Assembly (NCBI RefSeq): GCF_018398935.1
Contig: NZ_CP074694.1
Span: forward strand, 5,250,001 to 5,282,000
Reading direction: 5' to 3'
DNA: 32,000 bases
Source of the DNA: Telmatocola sphagniphila
GTDB taxonomy: Bacteria; Planctomycetota; Planctomycetia; Gemmatales; Gemmataceae
A model generated the notes under the pieces. That model made no database searches and was not told where the DNA came from. It was given only the letters and a program-made list of their open reading frames with translations. Shown here piece after piece: positions 2,148-18,293 of the stretch; positions within the stretch are counted from its first letter, which is position 1; the number at the start of each line of letters is the position of its first letter. The translations under genes and the position numbers were made by a program.

Positions 2148-2208
2148 ATGAATGTGATAAATCGAATCCATTCAAAGATAGCTTCCGACGGAATTTGAAA
2201 TAGTAGCG

Positions 2209-2232
2209 ACGGGTGAACGCGGCTTCACCCGT
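2209..2232 (+). terminator. Perfect 9-bp stem / 6-nt loop hairpin about 60 nt after the DUF1559 stop
   Basis: ACGGGTGAA-cgcggc-TTCACCCGT. No U-tract follows, so its terminator function is uncertain. Confidence 0.35.
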
Positions 2233-2570
2233 TGGATCCTGAAGGCAACGCTCAGCTTCGGACCAATTATATTTATTAAATCGTCCATATCGTCCCATAA
2301 AATTCTAAATATGTAGGCGATATACCTTTCATTAATGCTAAACTCTTTAGTCTCAGGTTTTGCAGTAGAGAAGAATAAATTCTTATCACATCTTAAGATT
2401 TACTTTTTTATCCCGACTCCAAGTATACAATTTGAATCGTCCGATATTCCCGGAGGGAAATTCTGACCCGCGAAAGGTCTATTTTTTCCTCCGATTTCCG
2501 AGCTAATCCAACCGCTGAGATTTTGAAGTGGAATGACTTCCACCAGGCAGCAAGCAATAGGAATAGAAGT

Positions 2571-3440
2571 ATGGCCTCATCCAAGTCCTCCGGGACTGTT
2601 CTTCTGGATATATTGAAGCATCGACACGAAAAGTTGTTGTCCGATTGGTGGGACGAATTGAAATCGCAGTCATCGATTTCAATTGCCCGCAATGGGGAAG
2701 AAGAATTGAAAGCCCAGATTGAGCGATTCATCGCGCTCATTCGACAATCGGCCGATGCGCAATCTCTCTCGAATTTGAATTCGGCAAACTGGCGCCCGCT
2801 GACCGAATATCTCCAGGAAATTTCCCGCTCGCGAGCTCAGCAGGGTTTTACCAGCGAGCAGACGGCTACTTTCATTTTTTCGCTAAAGAAACCCTTCTTC
2901 GAAGCCATCCGCCTGGAAACCGCGCATAGCCCCGAAAAAGCGGTCGCTGCGATGTGGGAGGTGACCGAGTTAATCGATCATCTGGGCTTATTGACCGTCG
3001 CCTATTTTCAGCAGAGCCGGGAAGAGGTCATTCGACGGCAGCAGGAAGAGCTGCTGGAGCTGTCGACTCCCGTGGTGAAACTCTGGGACGGTGTGCTCGC
3101 ACTGCCAATGATCGGCACTCTGGACAGCGCCCGAACGCAAATTGTCATGGAATCGCTACTGCAGCGGATCGTTGAGACCGAATCCGAACTCGCCATCATC
3201 GACATCACCGGTGTGCCGACCGTCGACACGCTCGTTGCTCAGCATCTTCTGAAGACGGTTACTGCAATTCGTCTGATGGGGGCGGATTGCATTATTAGCG
3301 GGATTCGTCCGCAGATCGCGCAAACCATCGTTCATCTGGGCGTTGATCTCCAGGGAGTGACGACGAAGTCCAACCTGGCCGATGCCCTGGCGCTGGCCCT
3401 CAAACGAACCGGCTTTACCGTAGCGAGGAATCGGCCGTGA
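2571..3440 (+). CDS. rsbR: RsbR-type stressosome sensor/co-antagonist (RsbRD_N-like N-terminal domain + C-terminal STAS)
   Basis: The C-terminus 'LSTPVVKLWDGVLALPMIGTLDSARTQ...AIIDITGVPTVDTLVAQHLL...ISGIRPQIAQTIVHLGVDL' is collinear with B. subtilis RsbRA STAS. Both phospho-Thr positions are conserved (DITGVP, AQTIV). The ORF opens at 2523; the start is probably MASSKSS at 2571. Confidence 0.9.
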   Translation: MASSKSSGTVLLDILKHRHEKLLSDWWDELKSQSSISIARNGEEELKAQIERFIALIRQSADAQSLSNLNSANWRPLTEYLQEISRSRAQQGFTSEQTATFIFSLKKPFFEAIRLETAHSPEKAVAAMWEVTELIDHLGLLTVAYFQQSREEVIRRQQEELLELSTPVVKLWDGVLALPMIGTLDSARTQIVMESLLQRIVETESELAIIDITGVPTVDTLVAQHLLKTVTAIRLMGADCIISGIRPQIAQTIVHLGVDLQGVTTKSNLADALALALKRTGFTVARNRP

Positions 3441-3841
3441 GCGAGGCTTCGACGCGAATACCCGTACTGCGAATGGGCGAATTCCTCCTCGTCACAATTC
3501 AAGTGGACATGCACGATCGCATGGCGCTTCAATTACAGGACGACTTGACGCGCCACATCGAGAAGACCGGTGCCCGGGGCGTTTTGATCGATATCTCGGC
3601 TTTGGAAATGGTCGATTCGTTCATCGGGCGAATGATTGCCAATATCTCCAGTATTTCGCAAATTCTGGATGCCCAGACAGTGATTGTCGGCATGCAGCCG
3701 GCCGTGGCGATTACCCTCGTCGAACTCGGCATGCAACTTGCGGGTGTAAAAACGGCTTTAACCGTCGAACGGGGTATGAAATGCCTGCGGGAAATGCGGG
3801 CCTCATCAGCGGGGGGAGAGCATGCCAGTCACGAAGAGTGA
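3437..3841 (+). CDS. rsbS: RsbS-type STAS scaffold protein (stressosome antagonist)
   Basis: 'IPVLRMGEFLLVTIQVDMHD...VLIDISALEMVDSFIGRM...VIVGMQPAVAITLVELGM' is collinear with RsbS and keeps the phosphorylatable Ser in 'MVDSFI'. Its GTG start overlaps the rsbR stop (GTGA). Confidence 0.9.
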   Translation: MSEASTRIPVLRMGEFLLVTIQVDMHDRMALQLQDDLTRHIEKTGARGVLIDISALEMVDSFIGRMIANISSISQILDAQTVIVGMQPAVAITLVELGMQLAGVKTALTVERGMKCLREMRASSAGGEHASHEE

Positions 3842-4226
3842 CACCCTTCCCTTGATGTCGGAGCAGGATATCGTCCATACCCGACAACTTGTTCGCAAAC
3901 TTGCGCTGGAACAGGGCTTTTCATTGGTCGATCAGACAAAACTGGTTACCGCCGCGAGCGAACTCGCTCGAAATACCGTCAAATATGGCGGCGGCGGACA
4001 CGTATTCTGGGAATTGCTCACAGACGGCTCCCGGAAAGGAATTCGTCTGCGCTTTCAGGATGAGGGGCCGGGAATCGAAGATGTCTCTCTGGCGATGACC
4101 GAGGGATGGACTTCCGGCAACGGTATGGGATTGGGGCTTTCCGGCTCCAAGCGGCTGGTCAATGAATTCGATATTGATTCTGCTCCTGGCCGGGGAACGC
4201 GTGTGACCATCGCCCGCTGGAAATAA
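3822..4226 (+). CDS. rsbT: RsbT-type GHKL serine kinase (stressosome switch kinase)
   Basis: N-box 'ASELARNTVKYG', G1 'QDEGPGI' and G2 'GNGMGLGLSGSKRL'. The N-terminus 'MSEQDIVHTRQLVRKLALEQGF' parallels B. subtilis RsbT. It overlaps rsbS by 20 nt. Confidence 0.9.
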   Translation: MPVTKSDTLPLMSEQDIVHTRQLVRKLALEQGFSLVDQTKLVTAASELARNTVKYGGGGHVFWELLTDGSRKGIRLRFQDEGPGIEDVSLAMTEGWTSGNGMGLGLSGSKRLVNEFDIDSAPGRGTRVTIARWK

Positions 4227-4231
4227 TCGAC

Positions 4232-5245
4232 ATGCCGTCGCATCTGATTTTCCCGATAAACGAGAGCTCGCAGGTCGGGGAAGCGCGAAGAATGGCCAGC
4301 CGCATTGCGGAACAGGCCGGATTTGGAGAAAACGATCGCGGCAAAGTCGCTATTGTCGCCACGGAACTGGCGACGAATCTCGTCAAGCACGCGCGACAGG
4401 GCCGAATCTTGCTACGGTCTTTTAGATCCGCTGCCGAATCCATCGTGGAAATTCTGTCCATCGATTCCAATCCCGGGAAGGCGGATTTTGCCGCGTGTCT
4501 GGCAGATGGTTATTCGACTGCAGGCACGCCGGGCAATGGCCTGGGTGCAGTAAAGCGACTATCCCGGACCTTCGATTTTTATTCAGGCCCAGGCAATGGC
4601 ACTGTCATTCTGTCCCAAATCGCCCCCGGAGAATTCAAGGACACGCAACCTTCAAGATCCCATTTCGAATGGTGTGCGCTAACGGTAGCCGCACCCGGAG
4701 AAACCGTTTGCGGAGACGCCTGCGGGGTCGAAGTGAGGGAGGGTCAGCTGCGCCTGATGATTGCCGATGGACTGGGACACGGACCCGGGGCGGCGGAAGC
4801 GTCGGAGAAAGCGTGTGATGTTTTTACCCAGATGAATTCGTTTACTCCGCGAGCATTGATCGAGCTTTCGCATCGTAGTTTGATGGGCACGCGTGGAGCT
4901 GCCCTGGCAGCGGCTTCGGCCGATGCGAATTCCCAGGATCTGGAGTTTGCCGGTGTCGGAAATATCTCAGCCAGCCTTCAGAGCCTGACCGGTTCGCGGG
5001 GACTGATGTCCTACAACGGCACTCTGGGAGCTCAGTTCCGCTCGGTCCGGCAGTTGACTTATCAATGGGCGAAAGATTCGATTCTGGTACTGCATTCCGA
5101 TGGGATCAAGACACACTGGAGTTTAACCGATAATCCCGGACTGTTTCACTGTCATCCCGCCGTAATTGCCGCCGTGCTGTTGCGCGATCAGTGCCGGGGT
5201 CGAGACGACGCGTCGATCGTTGTGGTCCGCCGAAAGTCCGCTTGA
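4232..5245 (+). CDS. Fusion protein: N-terminal RsbT/RsbW-like GHKL ATPase/kinase domain + C-terminal PP2C (SpoIIE/RsbX-like) phosphatase
   Basis: N-terminal half: 'ATELATNLVKHA', 'IDSNPG', 'GNGLGAVKRLS'. C-terminal half: 'GDACGV', 'MIADGLGHGPGAAEAS', 'VLHSDGI', 'DDASIVVV' (PP2C/SpoIIE metal-binding motifs). It starts 6 nt after rsbT. Confidence 0.9.
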   Translation: MPSHLIFPINESSQVGEARRMASRIAEQAGFGENDRGKVAIVATELATNLVKHARQGRILLRSFRSAAESIVEILSIDSNPGKADFAACLADGYSTAGTPGNGLGAVKRLSRTFDFYSGPGNGTVILSQIAPGEFKDTQPSRSHFEWCALTVAAPGETVCGDACGVEVREGQLRLMIADGLGHGPGAAEASEKACDVFTQMNSFTPRALIELSHRSLMGTRGAALAAASADANSQDLEFAGVGNISASLQSLTGSRGLMSYNGTLGAQFRSVRQLTYQWAKDSILVLHSDGIKTHWSLTDNPGLFHCHPAVIAAVLLRDQCRGRDDASIVVVRRKSA

Positions 5246-5255
5246 GATTGAGATT

Positions 5256-6191
5256 ATGATGTGGGATTCCCTTCCCCAACTCCCGAATGAAGAAATCGCA
5301 AACCTCGATCGCGAAGGTTTGATAGCCCGCTTGCGCGATCAATCGGAGCTCCTGAAATCGTTGACCACCGAGCTAGCGGAGACCAATCAGGGAGTGGTAG
5401 CGCTCTATGCCGAGTTGGAGGATCGCGCCGAGCAGTTGCGGGCGGCGTCGGATCTTAAGAGCCGATTTTTGTCCTACATGAGCCACGAGTTTCGCACGCC
5501 CCTCGGCGCCATTCTGAGCATCGCCCGCATCCTGCTGGATCGGATGGACGGCCCCCTGACCGACGAGCAGGAAAAGCAGGTATCCTTCATCAAATCCTCG
5601 GCCACCGAATTGACCGATATGGTCAACGATCTACTCGATCTGGCAAAAGTCGAAGCTGGTCGCATCGCCATTTCCCCGGCCTGGTTCGAGATGGTGGATC
5701 TGTTTGCCGCCCTGCGGGGCATGTTCAAACCGATTCTTTTCAAGGCCGATGTGTCGCTGATTTTCGAAGAGCCGCACGAGATTTCGCGGATCTATACCGA
5801 CGACGTGAAACTCTCGCAAATTCTCCGAAATTTTATTTCCAACGCTCTGAAATTTACCAATCAGGGAGAGGTTCGGGTTATCACCCGTCCCGTCGAGAAT
5901 GACTGCGTCGAATTTCAAGTCGCCGATAGCGGCATCGGTATCAGTGCGGAAAATCTATCTGCAATTTTTCACGACTGGGTTCAGCTGGATTCGCCCATGC
6001 AAAAGCGGCTGAGAGGCTCGGGGTTGGGCCTTTCGCTCAGTAAGCGATTTGCCGAAATGCTCGGCGGGCGCGTCGGTGTGACCAGTAAATTGGGGGTCGG
6101 CTCGGTCTTTTCGGTGATAATCCCACGCTGCCTGCCCGGACACCAGACCGAGGGGACGATGAGTTCTCTCGAACCGCGGGGAGGGACTTAA
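5256..6191 (+). CDS. Soluble histidine kinase (N-terminal coiled coil + HisKA + HATPase_c); no TM or recognisable sensor domain
   Basis: H-box 'FLSYMSHEFRTPL', N-box 'QILRNFISNALKFT', and 'DSGIGI', 'GSGLGLSLSKRFAEMLGG'. The ORF opens at 5166, overlapping the upstream gene. The ATG at 5256 (MMWDS...), 11 nt after the upstream stop, is preferred. Confidence 0.9.
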   Translation: MMWDSLPQLPNEEIANLDREGLIARLRDQSELLKSLTTELAETNQGVVALYAELEDRAEQLRAASDLKSRFLSYMSHEFRTPLGAILSIARILLDRMDGPLTDEQEKQVSFIKSSATELTDMVNDLLDLAKVEAGRIAISPAWFEMVDLFAALRGMFKPILFKADVSLIFEEPHEISRIYTDDVKLSQILRNFISNALKFTNQGEVRVITRPVENDCVEFQVADSGIGISAENLSAIFHDWVQLDSPMQKRLRGSGLGLSLSKRFAEMLGGRVGVTSKLGVGSVFSVIIPRCLPGHQTEGTMSSLEPRGGT

Positions 6192-8503
6192 TGAAGCCAT
6201 CTGCGCAAGGGACGATTTTGATCGTCGATGATCAGGAAGTCAACCGTTATACCACTACCCGAATTCTTCGCGACGTCGGTTTTTCAACGCTCGAAGCTAA
6301 AAATGGCCAGGAAGGTCTGCGCCTGGCGGAGACGGGCCCCGATTTGATTCTTCTCGATGTCAACTTGCCGGATATCGATGGTTTTCAGGTTTGTCGAATC
6401 CTGAAATCGAATCCGAATACCGAACAGATTCCCGTCGTTCATGCTTCGGCGACATTTGTCAGCGACCGCGATAAAGCGCAAGGTCTCGATGATGGGGCGG
6501 ACGGCTACCTGGTTCGACCGGTGGAAGCCTGCGTATTAGTGGCCACCGTTCGCTCCTGCATTCGGGCGCGCCGGGCCGAAGAGAAAATCAGCCAGCAGCA
6601 ACGTCAGTTGCAAACGCTCGCGGACAACTGTCCCGATATTCTCACTCGATTCGACTTGGAGCACCGGCATATATTCGTCAGTGCGGCCATCGAACGCGCT
6701 ACTGGTCGCGCCTCGTCCGAATTTTTGGGAAGGACCAATCGCGAACTCGGTCTGCCGGAAAATCTTTGCGACTTCTGGGAAGCGGCCATCCAGACGACGA
6801 TTGATTCGCGCCAACCGCAATCGATCGAGTACAGCTTTCCCTCCCAACTCGGCCCGCGCCATTACATTTCGCGCCTTATTCCTGAGTTCAACCGGGAGGG
6901 TGATGTCGAATCGGTCCTTTCGGTTGTCACCGATATTACCGAACGCCGTGAAACCGAAGAAGTTTTGCGAATCACGGCCGAGCGGTTGCAGCTGGCCGCT
7001 GAAGCCGCCAATTTTGGAACCTACGATGTCGATTTGAGCACCGGTCAGGTTTACTGGTCCCCGCAAATGCGAGTGATCTTCGGCGTTGCACCCGAGGGGA
7101 ATGTTGACGATTTTCTCCACAACGGCCCACCGGGAATTCATCCAGAAGATCGCGATCGATTTCTCGGAATGATCCGAACGCTGCAACGCTCCGAGTCTCT
7201 GCCGAGTTCGGAAATCGAATTTCGGCTGGTCAGTCCGGAAGGGGATATTCGCTGGGTTCTCCTGCTCGGTCGGAATTACTTTACCGAGGCCGGACCTCGA
7301 CAACCGGTACGCATCTCCGGCGTCTCGTTCGATATTACGGATCGCAAAATCGTCGAAGAATCCTTGCGCGATGCCGATCGCCGCAAGAACGAGTTTCTGG
7401 CCATGCTGGCTCACGAGTTGCGAAATCCGCTGGCGCCGATTCGAAATGCCATGCAAATCCTTCGTCTGGCTCCCGAACGCGAGGCCCAGGAGCGAGCCCG
7501 CCAGATGGTCGACCGGCAATTGGGGCAACTCGTCCGGCTCGTGGACGATCTTCTGGATGTCAGCCGGATCAGCCAGGGGAAGTTGAAACTGCGCAAGGAG
7601 CGCATCGATCTGGCCAGTGTGCTGGCCAACGCCGTCGAAACCAGTCGGCCTCTGATCGAACAGATGGGGCACGAACTCCTCGTGACACTGCCCAATCCCT
7701 CGATTGAGATCGACGGCGATGCCACGCGGCTGGCGCAGGTCTTCATGAACCTGCTTAATAATGCTGCCAAGTATAGCGAACGGGGCAGTCGGATTTGGCT
7801 GTCGGCGCACGCCGAGGGGGCTGAAGCGGTGATAACCGTCCGCGATAACGGTATCGGCATCGCCGTGGATCAGCTGCCGCGCATCTTCGAACTTTTTGCT
7901 CAGGTCGATCGATCTCTGGAAAAATCCCAAGGGGGATTAGGGATCGGGCTGACGCTGGTGAAACAATTGGTCGAGTTGCACTCTGGCAAAGTGGAAGCAA
8001 AAAGTAGCGGCTCGGGCCAGGGATCGGAATTCAGTGTGCGACTTCCCATCCTGACTACCATCCAAGTTGCAAAGGTCGATGCGGCCAATCAGAACGGCGA
8101 TATGAAAAAAACGTCTCTGCGCGTGCTGGTGGTGGACGACAATCGGGACGGCGCCGACAGTCTGGCCATGATGTTGAGACTGATGGGAAATGAAACGCGC
8201 ACCGCTTACGATGGGGAAGAAGCGCTGGCCTTGGCCTCGCGCTTTCTTCCCGATGCGATTCTCCTGGATCTCGGCTTGCCCAAAGTCAACGGCTACGATG
8301 TTTGCCGCCGGATTCGGGAACTATCCGGAAATCGCCGTCCGTTAATTATTGCCCAAACCGGCTGGGGTCAGAACGAAGATCGCTTACGCACCGCCCAGGC
8401 GGGCTTCGATGAACATATGATCAAACCGATCAATCCCGAAGCCGTGTTGCAAATGCTCCGGAAACTCGAAAATCGGATGGGAAAGGTTTCAGTACGCGGT
8501 TGA
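6191..8503 (+). CDS. Hybrid sensor kinase/response regulator: REC - PAS - PAS - HisKA - HATPase_c - REC
   Basis: N-terminal REC ('ILIVDDQE...LILLDVNLPDIDG'). Two PAS-like segments. H-box 'LAMLAHELRNPL', 'NLLNNAAKYS', 'DNGIGI', 'GGLGIGLTLVKQL'. C-terminal REC ('VLVVDDN...AILLDLGLPKVNG...MIKP'). Its ATG overlaps the upstream TAA (TAATG). Confidence 0.95.
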   Translation: MKPSAQGTILIVDDQEVNRYTTTRILRDVGFSTLEAKNGQEGLRLAETGPDLILLDVNLPDIDGFQVCRILKSNPNTEQIPVVHASATFVSDRDKAQGLDDGADGYLVRPVEACVLVATVRSCIRARRAEEKISQQQRQLQTLADNCPDILTRFDLEHRHIFVSAAIERATGRASSEFLGRTNRELGLPENLCDFWEAAIQTTIDSRQPQSIEYSFPSQLGPRHYISRLIPEFNREGDVESVLSVVTDITERRETEEVLRITAERLQLAAEAANFGTYDVDLSTGQVYWSPQMRVIFGVAPEGNVDDFLHNGPPGIHPEDRDRFLGMIRTLQRSESLPSSEIEFRLVSPEGDIRWVLLLGRNYFTEAGPRQPVRISGVSFDITDRKIVEESLRDADRRKNEFLAMLAHELRNPLAPIRNAMQILRLAPEREAQERARQMVDRQLGQLVRLVDDLLDVSRISQGKLKLRKERIDLASVLANAVETSRPLIEQMGHELLVTLPNPSIEIDGDATRLAQVFMNLLNNAAKYSERGSRIWLSAHAEGAEAVITVRDNGIGIAVDQLPRIFELFAQVDRSLEKSQGGLGIGLTLVKQLVELHSGKVEAKSSGSGQGSEFSVRLPILTTIQVAKVDAANQNGDMKKTSLRVLVVDDNRDGADSLAMMLRLMGNETRTAYDGEEALALASRFLPDAILLDLGLPKVNGYDVCRRIRELSGNRRPLIIAQTGWGQNEDRLRTAQAGFDEHMIKPINPEAVLQMLRKLENRMGKVSVRG

Positions 8504-8589: not shown

Positions 8590-8838
8590 CTAATTGGCCC
8601 CCAGATCTTCCACAAATCTCGATGATGGGTACACCCGCTCATAATCCACGGCCAATGACTCCGAGATCATTCGACGCACCTTCAAAGCGATCTCCGGGTT
8701 CGTTCCCGGCCGACAGTTAGCCATAAATTCTTCATCCGAAATCGGTGGAAATTTTTCGCGAAACTTGGCCCGGGAACGGTGTTCACAGATCGTTATAAGT
8801 GCAATAAATGCAGTCAGAAAAATAAGAAATCCTGGCAT
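8590..8838 (-). CDS. Small membrane-anchored hypothetical protein (82 aa) with an ACP helix-I-like C-terminal half
   Basis: N-terminal TM segment (GFLIFLTAFIALITI). The codon usage looks coding. The C-terminus 'IALKVRRMISESLAVDYERVYPSSRFVEDLGAN*' parallels E. coli ACP '[34 protein letters not shown]' and stops before the Ser. Confidence 0.5.
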   Translation of the reverse strand: MPGFLIFLTAFIALITICEHRSRAKFREKFPPISDEEFMANCRPGTNPEIALKVRRMISESLAVDYERVYPSSRFVEDLGAN

Positions 8839-9326: not shown

Positions 9327-11696
9327 ATGAATCTTTCACATGTCATTCTCGGTAGATCGAATCGTAAAAAAGCTGCTCGTCCTATTCGAAAATCCAAAAC
9401 GATCCTGAAGTTCGAGACTCTCGAAGATCGGCTGCAACCCTCAGTCAGCGTGTTTCGGCCCATCACCGAGGTCGGCAACAATGTCGCCAACCCGACTTGG
9501 GGTGTTGCGGGAACCGATTTAATTCGGCTCACGGCCGCCGCCTATTCCAACGGGATCAATTCGCCTTCCTTACCCCAGGACCAAAGCGCCCGGGCCATCA
9601 GCGACATCCTTAATAGCCAGGCCGATCCGAACAATACGGCGTTAGACAGCCAGACGGTCAATCAGCAATCCTTGTCGGATTTTGTCTATAGCTTTGGTCA
9701 ATTCATGGATCACGACATGGATCTGACTCTCGATAATGGGGCTTCCGATCCGATTGCCGTACCCGTGGGAGATCCGATCGGCGGTTCGACCGATGCTTCC
9801 CTGGCGTTCAATCTGTCGAATGTCGATCCTGCCACCGGAACGAGTACCAAAAATCCCGCGCAGGATATCACTTCCATCACGGCTTATCTGGATCTGTCGC
9901 AAATTTACGGCTCCGATCTGGCAACCGATAATGCTTTGCGAACTTTCTCGGGCGGGCAGATGAAAACCAGCACCGGCGGTCTGCCACCGCTGGATAATCT
10001 GACGTACTTCACGGCCACCCAGTTGGCCCAGATCAATGCGTCTGTTGGCGGAATGGCGAACGATGGTCCCCTTCCCGAGTCGGATCTCTATGTCACGGGG
10101 GATACCCGGGGCAACGAAAACGTGGAGTTGACCGTTCTCCAGACTTTGTTCCTGGACAATCACAATAAGATCGCCAGTGAATTGCAGAAAATGAATCCGA
10201 CCTGGAGCGATGAGCAGATTTTCCAGGAAGCCAGAAAATTAAACATCGCGGAATATCAGGCGATCGTTTACAACGAATGGATACCCGATGTCCTCGGAGC
10301 GAATGCCCTACCCGCTTATAAGGGCTATAATCCGAGCGTTAACCCCAGCATTTCCAACGAATTTTCTACGGTTGCCTTTCGCTTCGGTCATAGCTTGCTG
10401 AGTGGCAATGTGGAACGACAAGGCAACGACGGTCAGGCCGTGGCGGACAGTGTTCCTTTGTCCGAGGATTTTTTTGATTCAAGCATTCTCAATGGGGAAG
10501 GCCAGGCCTCCACGACCGATCCTGTGACGGGATTGGCAACAACCGATATTGGTGCAGTATTGAAAGGCGATGCGGATGGGGATGCCCAGGCTGAAGACCC
10601 GCAGGTTATCAATGAAGTCCGCGATCTGCTTTTCAATGAAGTGATTCCGGGTGTAGGCGGTGGTCAGGATCTCATCGCACTGGATATTCAAAGAGGTCGA
10701 GTTAATGGCATCGGTTCTTATAACCAGGTGCGCGAAGGATTAGGGCTTCCGGCCGTTACAAGTTTTGCTCAAATAACCAGCAACGTTACAGTTCAGCAGG
10801 AATTGCAGCAAGCTTACGGCAATGTGAATAATATCGATGCCTTCGAAGGCGGCCTGGCGGAAGATCCGGTTCCTGGCTCGGATGTCGGCCCCTTGTTCCA
10901 GAAGATCATGGTCAATCAGTTTGAGCGCTTGCGAGATGGGGACCGCTTCTTTTATCTGAACGAAACTTTTACCCCTCAGGAATTTCAGATTTTCGAGCAG
11001 GGCAACACCCTATCCAAGGTGATTGAAAATAACACGGACATTACCAATCTTCAAAGCGACGTGTTTATCTTCCAGGCTTCAATCAGCGGCACAGTACACG
11101 GTTCCAGCCCCAATCACGCGGGCGTTCCCGGTATCACCGTTCAACTCGAAGATACCAGCGGCGATATCCTGGCAACGACTAAAACCGGACCCGGTGGACA
11201 CTACAGCTTTAATCAGCTGAGTGGTCCCGCAGCCGATCCCTCGAATGCTTCGGGCGTTTCCGGTACGGGTTATTATCAAATCGTGCTTTCGCTGCCGACC
11301 GGTGTCAAGCAGGTGACCCAGAGTCCAGCGGCCGTCTTGATTTCAGTGAGTGGAACGAACATAACCAGTGTGGATTTTGGCATCAATATCCCAGCCCCAC
11401 CCCCGCCTCCGCCCGCCGGACACGGTGGTCCGATGGGGCAATCGGGTCCTGGCATGCTGCCGAATATTCTTCAATCCCCGCCAGCATCGACTTCCGTAAC
11501 TAACGCTTCCTCCTCGAGTATAACTAGCGCAGCGCCCGTTGTGAAATCGAATCTATCGACCCCCCTGGATTTCAATTCACTCATGCAGGGAACTCGAGTT
11601 TCGAATTCGATTCTTGAACAAAAATCGGAAATGCGGGTTTATAAATCTACCCAGGTTTCGAATTTGGCTTCCGGGTTGTTCGTCACCGGGTTGTGA
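9327..11696 (+). CDS. Animal-haem-type peroxidase (peroxidase-cyclooxygenase superfamily) with a C-terminal CarboxypepD_reg/SdrD-B-like domain and a Pro/Ser-rich tail
   Basis: Distal site 'FGQFMDHDMDLT'. 'GDTRGNENVELTVLQTLFLDNHNKIA'. Proximal His 'FRFGHSLL'. 'DLIALDIQRGRVNGIGSYNQVR' and 'LRDGDRFFYLNE'. Then 'ISGTVHG...GITVQLEDTSGDILATTKTGPGGHYSF', followed by PAPPPPPPAG. Confidence 0.9.
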   Translation: MNLSHVILGRSNRKKAARPIRKSKTILKFETLEDRLQPSVSVFRPITEVGNNVANPTWGVAGTDLIRLTAAAYSNGINSPSLPQDQSARAISDILNSQADPNNTALDSQTVNQQSLSDFVYSFGQFMDHDMDLTLDNGASDPIAVPVGDPIGGSTDASLAFNLSNVDPATGTSTKNPAQDITSITAYLDLSQIYGSDLATDNALRTFSGGQMKTSTGGLPPLDNLTYFTATQLAQINASVGGMANDGPLPESDLYVTGDTRGNENVELTVLQTLFLDNHNKIASELQKMNPTWSDEQIFQEARKLNIAEYQAIVYNEWIPDVLGANALPAYKGYNPSVNPSISNEFSTVAFRFGHSLLSGNVERQGNDGQAVADSVPLSEDFFDSSILNGEGQASTTDPVTGLATTDIGAVLKGDADGDAQAEDPQVINEVRDLLFNEVIPGVGGGQDLIALDIQRGRVNGIGSYNQVREGLGLPAVTSFAQITSNVTVQQELQQAYGNVNNIDAFEGGLAEDPVPGSDVGPLFQKIMVNQFERLRDGDRFFYLNETFTPQEFQIFEQGNTLSKVIENNTDITNLQSDVFIFQASISGTVHGSSPNHAGVPGITVQLEDTSGDILATTKTGPGGHYSFNQLSGPAADPSNASGVSGTGYYQIVLSLPTGVKQVTQSPAAVLISVSGTNITSVDFGINIPAPPPPPPAGHGGPMGQSGPGMLPNILQSPPASTSVTNASSSSITSAAPVVKSNLSTPLDFNSLMQGTRVSNSILEQKSEMRVYKSTQVSNLASGLFVTGL

Positions 11697-15311: not shown

Positions 15312-17114
15312 ATGAGTAGATCTGCCCGGGTAGGACAAGCTCTATTTTTCATCATTTTTGCGATCATATTAACGCATCAAACTTCAATTATAATTTCGCG
15401 AATTCGGCATGGAGGCTCTTTCGCGTTCTGGGCGCGTGATATCTGCTTTGCTGGGGGATTTTTGTCTTATTTTGTCTTTTTATACAAGGGTGATTTGAGC
15501 TTTAAGCCGTATATGTTTTGGGTGTCCTTGATCTACGGAGCTATATGTCTGAAAGAGGCATTTGATATCTTCAAGACCGTGCAACCTGTTGAAGATATTC
15601 CGCTTCAACAGCGAGCCAAACTGGTGGCGTTTGTTAGCATTCTTTTGGGATTGTTCTACATATCCGCAGCGTTGTTATTTAAGTACTTAAAATCGATAAT
15701 TGCATTTTTGAATCATCAAGAGCGAGTGTCGACCACCGGAACAGGAGGCTTTGTCGATTGGATACTGAATCCGGGATGGCGAAGGTCCCTAGAAGAGAAT
15801 ACCGCACCTAAAGAATTGAATGAAACGCAGTGTCGGCAGCTCGTTCAGCGGCTTGTATCGGAAAATTACGATGATGGAGTCCGCTATGCCTTGCGGCACG
15901 CAGGTCCGGCGAAAATTCTACCATTAGTCGAGGCACTTCAAAACGATCAATGTCTAAGGCCTTATGACAATGCTAAATCGGCCCACTTTGGGACGACTCC
16001 CTATGAGCAAATACTCAATCAGCTGAATGAATCTTACCCAGAAGAGTCGTTACCGATCGTGTTACGCCATGCCGAGTCTGAAGACATCAATATCAGAAAA
16101 GCCTCTATCAGCTATCTAGCGGGAATAAGCTCTCCGGAGTGCTTGCCTGCTCTGAAAAAAGCCTTGGAGCGGGCCGATAAAGAAATTCTCTCCGGTTTGC
16201 TATGGGGCTTGATACATCATCTGTCTTCAAAAAGTCCTCAACAGATTCAGCAGCTATCACAAGAATTGTACGATCCGATTCTTCAGTTATTGAAGCAGAA
16301 TGAGGAACGAGATTTAGAAGAGCCTTTAGCCAAATCTCTGCTATCTCTTGATCGTTCTAAAGCCCAAAAAGATATGACAGACCCCAATATTTTGAAGCTG
16401 GATCGTCCACAACTCTTTCGAATTCTGGAAGCTTTGAACAAATTCGAGATCGCGATCCCAGAAACTGAGTGTTTGAAGATATTGCAAGCCGTTTTCTCAG
16501 AGAGAGAAGACTATCCCAATAGCTATATTTACTCCCAAATTGTCATCGCATTAGCTCGAATCAAATCGCCAAAAGCTCAAGCTTTGATCGAGGAATCATT
16601 TGCTAATATCACGGATAAAATGATTCGCGAATCCCTCTGTGAAGCGAAATTGTTACTAAACGACATCTCCGATCCTTACAAAGTCGTTTTCCGGAAAGAA
16701 GAAAAAATCGGTTTTAAGGGACTTTCAGCACCTCAAAGAGCAATCTATACCACCTATTTTTTGAAAGCGGAAGTCGATAATGGGGGGTTCAGCCAATACT
16801 TGGTCAATTCTTCTGGAGATCATTTTCGAGAGGCCTTGGATGGTTGTCGAGCAATAGGCGATCTTAAAGCGGTTGCCCTGCTTACCGAAATCAGCAAGTA
16901 TTTCGGTTCCGATGGTCCCTCCGATAATCATGATCGTCGACACGATCAGTTATCCAAAATTTATACCTCCCATGAAGATGATTTTTCTCGTCTGGACTCG
17001 GAATATTACGCATCGGATGCGGAGCGTACCGTACTGTGGATGGAGTATATCCTTCAGAACAAGTCCGATTTCATTAAAGAAAAAACTTCTCAAGGCGAAC
17101 AGAAAGACTCCTAA
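15312..17114 (+). CDS. Membrane protein: ~4 N-terminal TM helices + HEAT-like repeats + C-terminal DUF4375 (DMP19-like) domain
   Basis: Hydrophobic segments lie in residues ~9-125. 'HAESEDINIRKASISYLAGISSPECLPALKKALERAD' is HEAT/PBS-lyase-like. 'LSAPQRAIYTTYFLKAEVDNGGFSQYLVNSSGDHFREALDGCRAIG' is the DUF4375 core signature. GC is about 40%, against about 58% in mutS. Confidence 0.8.
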   Translation: MSRSARVGQALFFIIFAIILTHQTSIIISRIRHGGSFAFWARDICFAGGFLSYFVFLYKGDLSFKPYMFWVSLIYGAICLKEAFDIFKTVQPVEDIPLQQRAKLVAFVSILLGLFYISAALLFKYLKSIIAFLNHQERVSTTGTGGFVDWILNPGWRRSLEENTAPKELNETQCRQLVQRLVSENYDDGVRYALRHAGPAKILPLVEALQNDQCLRPYDNAKSAHFGTTPYEQILNQLNESYPEESLPIVLRHAESEDINIRKASISYLAGISSPECLPALKKALERADKEILSGLLWGLIHHLSSKSPQQIQQLSQELYDPILQLLKQNEERDLEEPLAKSLLSLDRSKAQKDMTDPNILKLDRPQLFRILEALNKFEIAIPETECLKILQAVFSEREDYPNSYIYSQIVIALARIKSPKAQALIEESFANITDKMIRESLCEAKLLLNDISDPYKVVFRKEEKIGFKGLSAPQRAIYTTYFLKAEVDNGGFSQYLVNSSGDHFREALDGCRAIGDLKAVALLTEISKYFGSDGPSDNHDRRHDQLSKIYTSHEDDFSRLDSEYYASDAERTVLWMEYILQNKSDFIKEKTSQGEQKDS

Positions 17115-17328: not shown

Positions 17329-17703
17329 ATGACAGTGGCAGTTTTCGATCTGAATTCCCGGCGAAAAGCGTTAAAAATGCCGGTGGATATACTCGTGAAA
17401 CGCTCCGGTGTGCCACGACCGACGGTTTTCCGCATACTTCGGGGGAATACGGACAAGGTGCGCTTTGGGTATGTTCAAAGGGTCGCGGAAGTCCTCGGGT
17501 TAGGATTCGGACAGCCCGCTTTGGATCCGGAAGAACTTCGGCGGCAGGAAGCAAAACGGAAAGCTCGTTTGCTGCGTCGGCTTACTCAGGGCACTATGGG
17601 GCTCGAAGCGCAGGCAGTATCGGATGAAGTGCTGAGCGAATTGGAAGAAATGACGATTGCAAAATTACTGGCTGGTAAAGGCCGCAAGCTCTGGAGCGAT
17701 TGA
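17329..17703 (+). CDS. XRE-like HTH protein, 'mobile mystery protein A'-like (putative antitoxin/regulator of the adjacent Fic)
   Basis: 'RRKALKMPVDILVKRSGVPRPTVFRILRGNTDKVRFGYVQRVAEVLGL' fits an HTH_XRE pattern. AGGAGG lies 10 nt upstream of the ATG. Its stop overlaps the start region of the Fic gene. Confidence 0.75.
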   Translation: MTVAVFDLNSRRKALKMPVDILVKRSGVPRPTVFRILRGNTDKVRFGYVQRVAEVLGLGFGQPALDPEELRRQEAKRKARLLRRLTQGTMGLEAQAVSDEVLSELEEMTIAKLLAGKGRKLWSD

Positions 17704-18293
17704 CGCTTATGACCTGGAAGTCGATCCCCGGTGAAACTCCGATTGATCCATCCGGTTTACGCAGTAAGAGTATCCGCACGAGAAAGCAACTCAACGAGGC
17801 TGAAGGTCGAAATATCGCCCAGCCTATTTTCAAATATTTGATCGGGGAATTGAAACCTGAAATGGCTCCTTTCGACCTGACATGGACTCTGGCTCTTCAT
17901 GAAGAAATGTTCGGAAAGGTTTGGGAGTGGGCCGGCCAAACTCGCAAAATCGATCTGAATATGGGTGTCTCCTGGCACCAAGTTGAAACGCAGCTTTACG
18001 ACTTGCTGCAGAGAATTCCATTTTGGAGCGATAAATCATTAGTCGAACAAGCAGCTCGAATTCATCACGGAGCGGTAGCAATCCATCCGTTCTTGAATGG
18101 TAACGGTCGCTGGTCGCGAATGCTTGCCAACATCTGGCTTAAACTTAACCACTCTAAAGTGACGGTTTGGCCTGAGCAAGCGGTGGGCGAAGTCAGTATC
18201 ATCCGTGAGGAGTATCTACAAGCCATTCGAGCTGCAGATAGCCTGGATTTCAATCCACTAATTCAATTACACGAAAAGTATTCGGAATTATAA
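17700..18293 (+). CDS. Fic/DOC family protein, 'mobile mystery protein B'-like
   Basis: Fic motif 'HPFLNGNGRWSR'. The N-terminus 'IPGETPIDPSGLRSKSIRTRKQLNEAEGRNI' is typical of this subfamily. The TTG at 17700 overlaps the upstream TGA; an alternative ATG is at 17709. Confidence 0.9.
   Translation: MTLMTWKSIPGETPIDPSGLRSKSIRTRKQLNEAEGRNIAQPIFKYLIGELKPEMAPFDLTWTLALHEEMFGKVWEWAGQTRKIDLNMGVSWHQVETQLYDLLQRIPFWSDKSLVEQAARIHHGAVAIHPFLNGNGRWSRMLANIWLKLNHSKVTVWPEQAVGEVSIIREEYLQAIRAADSLDFNPLIQLHEKYSEL

What the first reader, a model, noticed from the sequence alone, without database searches (positions are those of the whole stretch)
2523..8503. Complete stressosome module (RsbR-RsbS-RsbT-PP2C) wired to a two-kinase phosphorelay instead of sigma-B
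**Operon structure.** Six same-strand genes are tightly or overlappingly spaced: GTGA at 3437, a 20-nt overlap at 3822, a 6-nt gap at 4226/4232, an 11-nt gap at 5245/5256, and TAATG at 6189-6193.

**Conserved phospho-sites.** The RsbR STAS domain keeps both phospho-Thr positions (DITGVP, AQTIV). RsbS keeps the phospho-Ser (MVDSFI). These are the residues the RsbT kinase needs to target.

**Missing partner-switching genes.** No RsbU/V/W or sigma-B gene follows. Instead there is a sensor-less histidine kinase and then a REC-PAS-PAS-HK-REC hybrid.

**Context.** RsbRST modules feeding two-component outputs are known from comparative genomics. To my knowledge, how RsbT couples to a histidine kinase is poorly characterised, and I know of no experimentally studied stressosome from the Planctomycetota. 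No DNA-binding or enzymatic output domain is encoded in the operon, so the terminal output is unknown.
Basis: partly seen in the sequence, partly recalled or inferred. Interest (0 to 1): 0.68.

Follow-up and report, generated by a model that had tools for sequence, protein, structure and literature searches.

The report
Stressosome operon with two-kinase output
This is an intact six-gene stress-sensing operon (a "stressosome" plus two histidine kinases) in a planctomycete genome; it is one copy of a cassette found across at least a dozen phyla, so it is an ordinary member of a known but barely studied class.

Summary
The six same-strand genes at 2523/2571-8503 are real, and every domain call is confirmed: RsbR (RsbRD_N+STAS), RsbS (STAS), RsbT-like GHKL kinase, RsbX-type PP2C, a sensor-less histidine kinase, and a REC-PAS-PAS-HK-REC hybrid kinase.

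- The RsbR phospho-sites are not DITGVP/AQTIV. They are Ser202 (LDSAR) and Thr236 (TVDTLV), and both are phosphorylatable.
- The "PP2C" is a fusion of a second RsbT/RsbW-like ATP-binding domain with an RsbX-type phosphatase.
- Two of the stated gaps are off by one.

The cassette is not a planctomycete peculiarity. The same order, R-S-T-X(fusion)-HK-(REC-HK-REC), recurs in at least 551 reference genomes from about 12 phyla, and the fusion phosphatase family has more than 6,000 protein clusters. No output domain, Hpt or conserved seventh gene accompanies it in any of the 80 loci examined.

The first kinase has no RsbU_N domain. Its only input element is a long N-terminal helix carrying an invariant TNxGVxALYAEL patch, which is my candidate RsbT contact.

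Stressosome modules with two-component outputs are already described and partly studied in Vibrio. Verdict: a new member of a known kind.

The parts
2148..2570 (+). Upstream intergenic region, AT-rich between about 2260 and 2440. Presumed promoter and 5' leader of the operon.
   Evidence: A 375-nt gap follows the DUF1559 gene. No consensus sigma-70 promoter and no Rfam family was found here. The promoter is inferred, not shown.
2571..3440 (+). rsbR-like gene: RsbRD_N sensor domain plus STAS domain. It is 289 aa from the ATG at 2571; the mechanical ORF starts at the TTG at 2523 and gives 305 aa. The phospho-site equivalents are Ser202 and Thr236 in 305-aa numbering, or Ser186 and Thr220 from the ATG.
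   Evidence: Pfam RsbRD_N 3.3e-22 and STAS 3e-14. PDB matches are V. vulnificus RsbR 7o0i_B at 2e-33 and Listeria RsbR at 2e-31 over aa 35-297. Site mapping is and the start codon evidence.
3437..3841 (+). rsbS-like gene: a single STAS domain of 134 aa. The phospho-Ser is Ser61, in the MVDSF motif.
   Evidence: STAS 8e-10. PDB matches are Listeria RsbS 8.5e-30, B. subtilis RsbS 4e-29 and Moorella MtS 8e-27, with a gap-free alignment across the phospho-Ser.
3822..4226 (+). rsbT-like gene: a 134-aa GHKL Ser/Thr switch kinase. It keeps the N-box (ELARNT), the G1 box (DEGPGI) and the G2 box (GMGLGLSG).
   Evidence: HATPase_c 1e-13 and HATPase_c_2 1.4e-6. The nearest NCBIfam model is anti-sigma F factor SpoIIAB at 2e-10. 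A profile search of the PDB gives SpoIIAB at 2e-8. Orthologues average 58% identity across phyla.
4232..5245 (+). rsbX-like gene as a fusion: an N-terminal RsbT/RsbW-like GHKL domain (XN, aa 12-127) plus an RsbX-type PP2C domain (aa about 145-334). NCBI names the family 'ATP-binding SpoIIE family protein phosphatase'.
   Evidence: - Domains and family: Pfam HATPase_c_2 4e-12 and SpoIIE 2e-9; more than 6,147 homologous clusters.
- Invariant residues: ATP-binding N49, D78, P81, G82 and G98-G105, and PP2C metal ligands D162, D179, D290, D325 and D326.
- Structure: AlphaFold model with pLDDT 88 and pTM 0.89. Foldseek best matches are MtX 3zt9 (TM 0.89, rmsd 2.1) and RsbX 3w40 (TM 0.81).
5256..6191 (+). 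Sensor-less cytoplasmic histidine kinase (HK5, 311 aa). It has an 84-residue N-terminal signalling helix carrying the invariant patch E39-L-x-x-T43-N44-x-G46-V-V-A-L-Y51-A-E-L54. This helix continues into the DHp helix that carries His77, followed by the CA domain.
   Evidence: HisKA 3.6e-18 and HATPase_c 2.5e-23. It has no RsbU_N domain and no other Pfam domain in aa 1-75, and no TM-like segment. Motif conservation across 74 loci is shown. The AlphaFold model has a continuous helix over residues 11-94 with pLDDT about 90.
6191..8503 (+). Hybrid kinase (770 aa) with the order REC1, PAS_4, PAS_3, HisKA, HATPase_c, REC2.
- REC1 has acceptor Asp56, but the conserved Lys is replaced by Arg109.
- HisKA carries His408.
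- REC2 is canonical, with Asp, Thr and Lys present.
   Evidence: Pfam. REC residue statistics are: the REC1 Lys position is never Lys in 49 loci, while REC2 has Lys in 46 of 47. The PAS region's best PDB match is a sensory-box HK PAS domain, 3mr0, at 1e-14.

Best explanation
The region is a six-gene operon encoding a stressosome-type signalling module whose output is a two-kinase His-Asp phosphorelay, not a sigma factor.

**Shown by sequence**
- RsbR (sensor domain plus STAS) and RsbS (STAS) carry the phosphorylatable Ser/Thr residues of stressosome scaffolds.
- RsbT is an intact GHKL Ser/Thr kinase.
- Gene 4 is an intact RsbX-type PP2C fused to a second ATP-binding GHKL domain.
- Gene 5 is a soluble kinase with no sensor domain.
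- Gene 6 is a REC-PAS-PAS-HK-REC hybrid kinase.

**Inferred mechanism**
1. In the resting state RsbT is held on the RsbR/RsbS STAS core.
2. A signal sensed by the RsbRD_N domain lets RsbT phosphorylate RsbS Ser61 and RsbR Ser202/Thr236, and RsbT is released.
3. Free RsbT engages the long N-terminal helix of HK5 at the invariant TNxGVxALYAEL patch. This patch has a polar Thr in the coiled-coil core, flanked by invariant exposed residues. RsbT binding switches HK5 autophosphorylation at His77, by analogy with RsbT ordering the RsbU linker.
4. HK5 phosphorylates REC1 (Asp56) of gene 6. Together with the two PAS domains, this gates the second kinase (His408), which passes the phosphoryl group to its C-terminal REC2.
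5. The final target, an Hpt protein or response regulator, is encoded elsewhere in the genome.
6. The gene-4 phosphatase resets the system. Its RsbT-like N-domain probably docks it onto the same STAS surface that RsbT uses.
For: - **Domain and residue evidence:**
- **Operon structure:** junctions are overlapping or at most 10 nt apart, and there is no internal terminator signal above shuffle expectation.
- **Functional coupling of the stressosome genes to the two kinases:**
  - gene order is conserved in 80 loci from about 12 phyla
  - distance matrices are correlated, and T-HK5 is the highest pair at r=0.85
  - RsbT residues Trp63 and Trp96 track whether gene 5 lacks its own GHKL domain
- **HK5 has no other input:** it has no TM segment, no sensor domain and no RsbU_N.
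- **The HK5 N-terminal helix:**
  - it is one confident continuous helix running into the DHp
  - its non-core positions N44, G46, A49, Y51, A52 and E53 are invariant or nearly so (67 to 74 of 74 loci), and the core 'd' position is Thr43 in 72 of 74
- **A natural domain fusion:** in 59 of 78 loci the same kinase carries an RsbT-like GHKL domain fused in cis to its N-terminus.
- **Literature precedent:**
  - RsbT orders a coiled-coil linker to activate RsbU (PMC12143880)
  - stressosome operons with histidine-kinase outputs are described (PMC12143880)
  - RSTX modules with phosphorelay outputs are described (PMC9237108)
Against: - No step of the signal flow has been tested experimentally in this cassette type.
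- In the only studied stressosome with a two-component output (V. vulnificus), no RsbT-kinase interaction could be detected (PMC9237108).
- HK5 lacks RsbU_N, the only experimentally established RsbT-binding domain.
- The distance correlations and the Trp co-variation are confounded by shared ancestry, because the short-form cassettes may form a single clade.
- REC1 lacks the conserved Lys in every locus, so it may not behave as a standard phospho-receiver.
- Assembly of R and S into an icosahedral particle cannot be inferred from sequence.
- Only 32 kb of a 6.59-Mb genome could be examined, so a sigma-B-type partner elsewhere is not excluded.
Confidence: 0.6

Rival explanations
1. The components are the same, but the coupling is catalytic, not stoichiometric. 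Released RsbT, or the GHKL domain of gene 4, phosphorylates HK5 on a Ser or Thr. The most obvious target is the invariant Thr43 on the signalling helix, and this phosphorylation would switch the kinase.
For: [quoted passage not shown] That would explain their negative binding result (PMC9237108).
- The Moorella RsbT homologue is reported to phosphorylate its downstream diguanylate cyclase (summarised in PMC4976288).
- Thr43 is present in 72 of 74 loci.
- T keeps all of its catalytic boxes.
Against: - Thr43 falls on a core 'd' heptad position, which would be poorly accessible in a formed coiled coil.
- GHKL Ser kinases of this family are known to act on STAS domains, and HK5 has none.
- Two of 12 sampled cis-fused GHKL domains have degenerate ATP boxes. 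That fits a binding role better than a catalytic one.
Confidence: 0.15
2. The signal runs the other way, or in parallel. The two kinases, through PAS sensing in gene 6, are inputs or a separate co-regulated pathway. The R-S-T-X set would then be a small STAS/kinase/phosphatase partner-switch, not a megadalton stressosome, and its real target would be encoded elsewhere, for example an anti-sigma factor or an RsbU-like phosphatase.
For: - No RsbU_N docking domain is present in either kinase.
- Only 32 kb of the genome is visible.
- Gene 6 in this window has its own PAS sensors.
- Stressosome assembly is untestable here.
Against: - The PAS domains are a window-specific addition, seen in only 2 of the other loci. 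Gene 6 is normally REC-HK-REC, and gene 5 never has a sensor, so the kinases generally lack any input other than the upstream module.
- Gene order is kept across about 12 phyla despite evident horizontal spread.
- RsbR and RsbS match bona fide stressosome scaffold proteins at 1e-30, including the RsbRD_N turret domain.
- No PP2C in the cassette carries a REC domain that the kinases could control.
Confidence: 0.15
3. The switch protein that talks to HK5 is the N-terminal GHKL domain of gene 4, not gene 3. Gene 4 would be a bifunctional kinase/phosphatase that both resets the STAS proteins and relays the signal, and RsbT would only phosphorylate the scaffold.
For: - XN is an intact, conserved ATP-binding domain, with N49, D78, P81, G82 and G98-G105 invariant.
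- Gene 4 directly abuts gene 5, and one SpoIIE-containing protein carries the HK5 motif, which looks like a gene 4-5 fusion.
- XN-HK5 distances also correlate (r=0.79).
Against: - The T-HK5 correlation is higher (0.85).
- The GHKL domain fused to long-form HK5 is closer to T (34% identity) than to XN (23%).
- T is the most conserved of the three GHKL groups (58% against 43.5%).
- The T residues W63 and W96, not XN residues, were found to track the gene-5 form.
Confidence: 0.1

Closest known systems
Vibrio vulnificus stressosome locus (VvRsbR-S-T-X plus the two-component pair VvD1/VvD2)
   Same: - It is an rsbRSTX module with no sigma-B, followed directly by two-component genes that are co-transcribed with it.
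- RsbR has a Ser/Thr phospho-site pattern.
- Its STAS domain is the best PDB match to the window's RsbR (7o0i_B, 2e-33).
- The RsbT-to-kinase step is unresolved there too (PMC9237108, PMC10014275).
   Different: - Vibrio RsbR has a haem-globin sensor; here the sensor is RsbRD_N.
- Vibrio RsbX is described as a single-domain PP2C; here it is a GHKL-PP2C fusion.
- VvD1 is a kinase of about 1,060 aa. VvD2 is thought to control c-di-GMP, so that system has an enzymatic output. Here the pair is a 311-aa sensor-less HK plus a REC-PAS-PAS-HK-REC hybrid, with no output domain.
Bacillus subtilis / Listeria monocytogenes stressosome (RsbR-RsbS-RsbT-RsbU-RsbV-RsbW-SigB-RsbX)
   Same: - RsbR aligns over its full length with Listeria RsbR (2e-31).
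- RsbS matches at 1e-29 to 1e-30 and keeps the phospho-Ser.
- There is a small RsbT-type GHKL kinase and an RsbX-type PP2C (3w40; fold TM 0.81).
   Different: - The window has no RsbU, RsbV, RsbW or sigma factor.
- No RsbU_N domain is present on any downstream protein.
- RsbX comes immediately after RsbT and is fused to a GHKL domain.
- The first RsbR phospho-site is Ser, not Thr.
Moorella thermoacetica stressosome (MtR-MtS-MtT-MtX-MtG)
   Same: It has the R-S-T-X order, with X directly after T. MtX is the best structural match to the gene-4 PP2C domain (3zt9; E 7.6e-18, TM 0.89, 30% identity). MtS matches RsbS at 8e-27. The output is not a sigma factor.
   Different: The Moorella output is a diguanylate cyclase with an RsbU_N domain that RsbT acts on (PMC12143880). 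Here the output is a histidine-kinase pair without RsbU_N. The solved MtX chain is a 192-193-residue PP2C that aligns with the gene-4 PP2C domain only.
Histidine kinases with an RsbU_N domain in proteobacterial stressosome operons (Heinz 2022; Baral/Bradshaw eLife 2025)
   Same: This is a stressosome-to-histidine-kinase design, with a predicted coiled-coil linker between the RsbT-receiving element and the DHp.
   Different: HK5 has no detectable RsbU_N four-helix bundle (Pfam at E up to 10). Instead it has a single long helix with a family-specific invariant patch. In most relatives it also has a cis-fused RsbT-like GHKL domain.
Mycobacterium tuberculosis Rv1364c (PP2C-GHKL kinase-STAS multidomain protein, PDB 3ke6)
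   Same: A PP2C phosphatase and an RsbW-like GHKL kinase domain are combined in one polypeptide. It appears among the structural matches (ranks 19 and 26).
   Different: The domain order is reversed (PP2C then kinase), it has additional PAS and STAS domains, and it is not part of an RsbR/RsbS/RsbT operon.

Membership tests
Stressosome (RsbR/RsbS/RsbT/RsbX module) | An RsbR-type protein with an N-terminal sensor domain plus a C-terminal STAS domain carrying two phosphorylatable residues (B. subtilis T171/T205, Listeria T175/T209). | tested here: met
   RsbRD_N 3.3e-22 and STAS 3e-14. The protein aligns with Listeria RsbR over aa 35-297 at 2e-31. T175 maps to Ser202 and T209 maps to Thr236.
Stressosome (RsbR/RsbS/RsbT/RsbX module) | An RsbS-type single STAS protein with the conserved phospho-Ser (B. 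subtilis S59, Listeria S56). | tested here: met
   The match to Listeria RsbS is 8.5e-30 with a gap-free alignment. Ser61 in MVDSF aligns with the Ser in IDSF.
Stressosome (RsbR/RsbS/RsbT/RsbX module) | A small (about 130 aa) GHKL Ser/Thr kinase (RsbT), encoded immediately after rsbS, with intact ATP-binding boxes. | tested here: met
   The protein is 134 aa and overlaps rsbS by 20 nt. It has HATPase_c 1e-13, and its nearest solved relative is SpoIIAB at 2e-8. N51, D80xGxG and the G2 box are invariant in orthologues. No RsbT sequence was available for direct comparison, so orthology rests on family, size and synteny.
Stressosome (RsbR/RsbS/RsbT/RsbX module) | An RsbX-type PP2C feedback phosphatase. 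| tested here: met
   Sequence matches are MtX 2.3e-18 and RsbX 2.6e-10. Fold matches are TM 0.89 and 0.81. The metal-binding Asp residues are invariant. Unlike the reference RsbX proteins, it carries an extra N-terminal GHKL domain.
Stressosome (RsbR/RsbS/RsbT/RsbX module) | Assembly of RsbR and RsbS into a megadalton pseudo-icosahedral particle that sequesters RsbT. | not testable with these tools
   This needs co-expression followed by SEC or cryo-EM. No multimer prediction was available.
Stressosome (RsbR/RsbS/RsbT/RsbX module) | A downstream RsbT target that carries an RsbU_N docking domain. | tested here: not met
   No RsbU_N hit was found in HK5 or gene 6 at E 0.01 or below, nor in HK5 aa 1-75 at E 10 or below. 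This feature defines the Bacillus and Moorella type of output. According to PMC9237108 it is absent from most non-Bacillus loci, so its absence does not exclude a stressosome.
Sigma-B partner-switching cascade (RsbU-RsbV-RsbW-SigB) | rsbU, rsbV, rsbW and a sigma factor gene adjacent to rsbRST. | tested here: not met
   No such genes occur anywhere in the 32-kb window, nor next to the cassette in 80 related loci. The rest of the 6.59-Mb genome could not be examined.
Two-component phosphorelay | Histidine kinases with the H-box His and the N, G1, F and G2 boxes. | tested here: met
   HK5 has His77 (SHEFRTP) and gene 6 has His408 (AHELRNP). HisKA and HATPase_c score far above threshold, and the boxes are conserved across 51 homologues.
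Two-component phosphorelay | Receiver domains with the acidic pocket, the acceptor Asp, the Thr/Ser and the Lys. | tested here: inconclusive
   REC2 has all of these features. REC1 has the DD pair, Asp56 and Ser86, but the Lys position is Arg here and is never Lys in 49 loci. Whether REC1 is phosphorylated normally is unknown.
Two-component phosphorelay | An Hpt domain and a terminal response regulator with an output domain. | tested here: not met
   Neither is present in the operon, in the window, or as a conserved neighbour in 80 loci. It may be encoded elsewhere in the genome.

The most novel reading that the evidence does not exclude
This cassette, R-S-T-(GHKL-PP2C)-HK-(REC-HK-REC), may define a distinct and very widespread route from the stressosome to His-Asp signalling that does not use RsbU_N. 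RsbT-family GHKL domains, either free or fused in cis, would bind an invariant polar-core patch (TNxGVxALYAEL) on the pre-DHp signalling helix of a dedicated sensor-less kinase. The reset phosphatase would be targeted to the STAS core by its own RsbT-like domain. If so, the cassette would give a tractable soluble system, and a concrete interface, for answering how RsbT controls a histidine kinase.
Probability: 0.3. Interest if true: 0.6.

Novelty: new member of a known kind. Interest (0 to 1): 0.4.

Why it matters
Stressosomes are well understood only where they control sigma-B. How the released RsbT kinase controls other outputs, histidine kinases in particular, remains open, and the one studied case (Vibrio) gave a negative interaction result.

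This window adds no new kind of system. It does show that a single compact, fully soluble six-gene version is shared by hundreds of genomes from about a dozen phyla, with three specific and testable features:
- a kinase-like domain fused to the reset phosphatase
- a sensor-less kinase whose only input is one helix with an invariant surface patch
- a receiver domain that never has the canonical Lys

These features make the RsbT-to-kinase question directly testable with purified proteins. It would also be the first stressosome candidate described in Planctomycetota, but that is a taxonomic first only, not a mechanistic one.

Tried and rejected
1. **Is the HK5 helix motif a portable RsbT-receiving module?** I tested whether it also sits in front of other outputs such as PP2C or GGDEF.
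   - A word-indexed profile search returned only short fragments and was uninformative.
   - An exhaustive phmmer search found only 299 cluster representatives. Of 67 full-length hits, 64 had HisKA and only one had SpoIIE.
   - The motif is specific to this kinase family, so I rejected the idea.
2. **Is there an RsbU_N domain in HK5?** None was found even at E up to 10.
3. **Is there a conserved seventh gene (an output regulator or Hpt) next to the cassette?** Clustering the flanking ORFs from 80 loci gave only lineage-specific neighbours.
4. **Are there other REC, STAS, GHKL or HK genes, or a sigma factor, in the window?** None. The sigma-54 activator at 27252-28316 has no receiver domain and is 19 kb away, so I did not link it to the operon.
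5. **Is there a riboswitch or leader RNA upstream?** There are no Rfam hits in the whole window.
6. **Do promoter and terminator scans define the operon?** All counts were at shuffle expectation, so they are uninformative for a planctomycete.
7. **Pané-Farré et al. 2005**, the primary comparative-genomics paper on RsbRST output modules, is not held in the library. I therefore could not check whether it already drew this exact six-gene architecture.
8. **Can the source organism be named?** Names are masked for the window's own proteins. The closest MutS is 84% identical and unnamed, so only the phylum could be assigned.

Full report
**1. The observation**

The window contains six intact ORFs on the + strand between 2523 and 8503.

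rsbR and rsbS overlap by 4 nt (GTGA), rsbS and rsbT overlap by 20 nt, and genes 5 and 6 share TAATG. The other two gaps are 5 and 10 nt, not 6 and 11.
- An independent gene caller working on an identical public contig called the same six genes. It starts RsbR at the ATG at 2571 (289 aa) and gene 5 at the ATG at 5256.
- No internal terminator or promoter signal exceeds shuffle expectation, and no Rfam family is present.
- None of the six proteins has a membrane-like segment.

**2. Domain identities**

Pfam supports every assignment far above threshold.

| Gene | Domains |
|---|---|
| 1 | RsbRD_N + STAS |
| 2 | STAS |
| 3 | HATPase_c / HATPase_c_2 |
| 4 | HATPase_c_2 + SpoIIE |
| 5 | HisKA + HATPase_c |
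| 6 | REC, PAS_4, PAS_3, HisKA, HATPase_c, REC |

Comparison with solved structures places the first four proteins among experimentally characterised stressosome components.

- RsbR matches V. vulnificus RsbR at 2e-33 and full-length Listeria RsbR at 2e-31.
- RsbS matches Listeria, B. subtilis and Moorella RsbS at 8e-27 to 8.5e-30.
- The gene-4 PP2C domain matches Moorella MtX and B. subtilis RsbX by sequence.
- An AlphaFold model of gene 4 (pLDDT 88, pTM 0.89) matches the same two proteins by fold, with TM 0.89 and 0.81.
- RsbT has no close solved relative. A profile of its orthologues hits the SpoIIAB anti-sigma factor/Ser kinase at 2e-8, which is the correct family.

**3.

- **RsbR phospho-sites.** The gap-free Listeria alignment puts T175 on Ser202 (LDSAR) and T209 on Thr236 (TVDTLV). 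The PDB entries with Ala at exactly these positions confirm which residues experimenters treat as the sites.
- **RsbS site.** Ser61 in MVDSF is correct.
- **Gene 4.** It is not a plain PP2C. Residues 12-127 form a second RsbT/RsbW-like GHKL domain with invariant N-box, G1 and G2 residues, and the PP2C metal ligands are also invariant.

**4. Context and organism**

- The rest of the window encodes unrelated functions: a DUF1559 pseudopilin-like protein, a haem peroxidase, MutS, a Fic protein, an LRR protein, a sigma-54 activator without a receiver domain, and transport and polysaccharide genes.
- It encodes no sigma factor, no RsbU/V/W, no Hpt, and no additional REC, STAS or kinase genes.
- All of MutS's closest named relatives are Planctomycetota at 64-68% identity. 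DUF1559 with an N_methyl motif is a planctomycete hallmark. The phylum attribution therefore holds.
- The protein lies on a 6.59-Mb contig.

**5. How widespread it is**

- The gene-4 fusion belongs to a very large family, with more than 6,147 clusters at E<1e-5 and about 50% identity across phyla. NCBI names it "ATP-binding SpoIIE family protein phosphatase".
- A scan of one genome per species found at least 551 loci. The best 80 come from these groups:
  - Cyanobacteriota
  - Alpha-, Beta- and Gammaproteobacteria
  - Planctomycetota (six loci)
  - Gemmatimonadota, Acidobacteriota, Verrucomicrobiota and Nitrospirota
  - Myxococcota, Desulfobacterota, Bacteroidota and Actinomycetota
  - a Methanoregula archaeon
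- I used the window's own domains as phmmer queries.
  - R, S and T precede the phosphatase in 67 of 68 loci that have enough flanking sequence.
  - A kinase of the gene-5 family follows in 78 of 79.
  - A REC-HK(-REC) hybrid follows that in at least 49 of 66.
- Flanking genes beyond the six are lineage-specific.
- The cassette is therefore a self-contained, horizontally spread six-gene unit, and none of the 80 loci examined encodes its output next to it.

**6. Variation within the cassette**

- Gene 5 comes in two forms.
  - The short form, as in this window, occurs in 19 loci, including Pseudomonas, Rhizobacter, Schlesneria and a Planctomycetaceae MAG.
  - The long form occurs in 59 loci. 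It has an additional N-terminal RsbT-like GHKL domain (G5N) and often one or two C-terminal receivers.
- The three GHKL groups (T, XN, G5N) are distinct orthologous sets. T is the most conserved, at 58% mean identity across phyla, and G5N is closer to T (34%) than to XN (23%).
- Gene 6 is normally REC-HK-REC. The two PAS domains seen here occur in only two other loci.
- REC1 of gene 6 always keeps the acidic pocket, the acceptor Asp and the Ser, but it never has the canonical Lys: the position is Q, E, H, R, A or S in all 49 loci. REC2 is canonical.

**7. The RsbT-to-kinase step**

- HK5 has no RsbU_N domain and no other recognisable domain ahead of HisKA.
- Its first 70 or so residues nevertheless contain one of the most conserved segments of the whole cassette, ELEDTNRGVVALYAELD. 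In it T43 is present in 72 of 74 loci, and N44, G46, V47, A49, L50, Y51, E53 and L54 in 73 or 74 of 74.
- AlphaFold predicts one continuous helix from residue 11 to 94, with pLDDT about 90, running directly into the DHp helix that carries His77.
- The best heptad register has these features:
  - Leu or Val at the a/d core positions
  - Thr43 and Lys/Arg57 at polar 'd' core positions
  - the invariant N44, G46, A49, Y51, A52 and E53 on non-core positions
- That pattern is what I would expect of a marginally stable coiled coil that also serves as a protein-binding surface. It resembles the RsbU linker, where a polar core residue (Q94) keeps the linker flexible until RsbT binds (PMC12143880).
- Pairwise distance matrices of all cassette proteins correlate, and T-HK5 is the highest pair at r=0.85. 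T residues Trp63 and Trp96 occur almost only where gene 5 lacks its own GHKL domain: 13 of 15 and 14 of 15 short-form loci, against 0 of 34 long-form loci.
- These correlations fit a direct T-HK5 contact, but shared ancestry confounds them.
- The motif is not portable to other output domains.

**8. Most likely mechanism**

*Shown:*
- All catalytic and acceptor residues needed for a Ser/Thr kinase-phosphatase cycle on STAS proteins are present.
- All residues needed for two rounds of His-Asp phosphotransfer are present.
- The six genes are inherited together.

*Inferred:*
- R and S form a scaffold that holds T.
- A signal sensed through RsbRD_N causes phosphorylation of the scaffold and release of T.
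- T binds the HK5 helix and switches the kinase.
- HK5 phosphorylates REC1 of gene 6. Together with PAS input, this gates the second kinase and its REC2.
- The terminal partner lies elsewhere in the genome.
- Gene 4 resets the scaffold, with its GHKL domain acting as a docking module.

*Rivals:*
- T phosphorylates HK5, with Thr43 as the obvious candidate site.
- The signal runs in reverse or in parallel, and R-S-T-X is only a small partner-switch.
- XN, not T, acts as the relay.

**9. Comparison with what is known**

- rsbRSTX modules lacking sigma-B and followed by two-component or c-di-GMP genes have been known from comparative genomics since 2005 (Pané-Farré et al., cited in PMC9237108, PMC10014275 and PMC3360785).
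- They have been studied in V. vulnificus, where the downstream pair VvD1/VvD2 is co-transcribed with the module but no VvRsbT-VvD1 binding was found (PMC9237108).
- Histidine kinases with RsbU_N in stressosome operons are also noted in the literature (PMC12143880).
- The present cassette differs from these studied systems in four ways:
  - the GHKL-PP2C fusion
  - the absence of RsbU_N
  - the dedicated sensor-less kinase with its signature helix
  - the lack of any output domain
- I could not retrieve the 2005 paper to check whether this exact architecture was already drawn. No paper in the library links stressosomes with Planctomycetes in any substantive way.

**10. Verdict**

- It is a new member, in a new phylum, of a known kind of system, and one instance of a very common cassette. 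A specialist would not be surprised by its existence.
- Its value lies in the concrete, testable features it offers for the open RsbT-to-kinase question.
- Interest 0.4.

Noticed in passing
window 6191-6565 (gene 6 REC1), and L-series loci: The first receiver domain of the hybrid kinase never carries the canonical Lys (the CheY K109 position) in 49 loci. The position is Q, E, H, R, A or S, and it is Arg109 here. The acidic pocket, the acceptor Asp56 and Ser86 are all kept. The C-terminal receiver is fully canonical.
   Followed up: partly
L001-L080, gene 5 (e.g. L001 9017-10573, L018 9469-11292): In 59 of 78 related loci the first kinase carries a third RsbT-like GHKL domain at its N-terminus, and often one or two C-terminal receivers. 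The window's copy is the short form. Two of 12 sampled copies of this domain (L031 Isosphaeraceae, L074 Archangium) have degenerate ATP-binding boxes.
   Followed up: partly
window 3822-4226 (RsbT residues 63 and 96): Trp63 and Trp96 of RsbT are found almost only in cassettes whose gene 5 lacks its own GHKL domain: 13 of 15 and 14 of 15 short-form loci, against 0 of 34 long-form loci. This could be co-variation or simply shared ancestry.
   Followed up: partly
proteins P0331-P0474, consensus: Some long-form relatives of the first kinase carry the TNRGVxALY helix motif twice in tandem.
   Followed up: no
L041 5189-7874 (Methanoregula sp. MAG): The R-S-T-X part of the cassette also occurs in an archaeal MAG, preceded by PAS and histidine-kinase genes. 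The contig ends right after the phosphatase, so the downstream kinases cannot be seen.
   Followed up: no
window 9327-11696 (+): A 789-aa animal-haem-peroxidase family protein (Pfam 5.5e-130) has a C-terminal SdrD_B/CarboxypepD_reg-like domain and a proline-rich tail. It is the next same-strand gene after the operon, 823 nt downstream. It is not conserved next to the cassette in other genomes.
   Followed up: partly
window 17329-18293 (+): A small ORF with a weak HTH_3 match overlaps by 4 nt with a Fic/DOC family protein (2.5e-14). This looks like a Fic module with an upstream partner gene.
   Followed up: no
window 15312-17114 (+): A 600-aa protein combines HEAT repeats with a C-terminal DMP19-like domain (8.9e-27).
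   Followed up: no
window 27252-28316 (-): A sigma-54 activator consists only of an AAA+ domain and a Fis-type HTH (354 aa), with no receiver or sensor domain.
   Followed up: no
window 8590-8838 (-): An 82-aa ORF with a hydrophobic N-terminus and no family match lies convergent with the end of the operon. An independent gene caller also called it as a gene.
   Followed up: no
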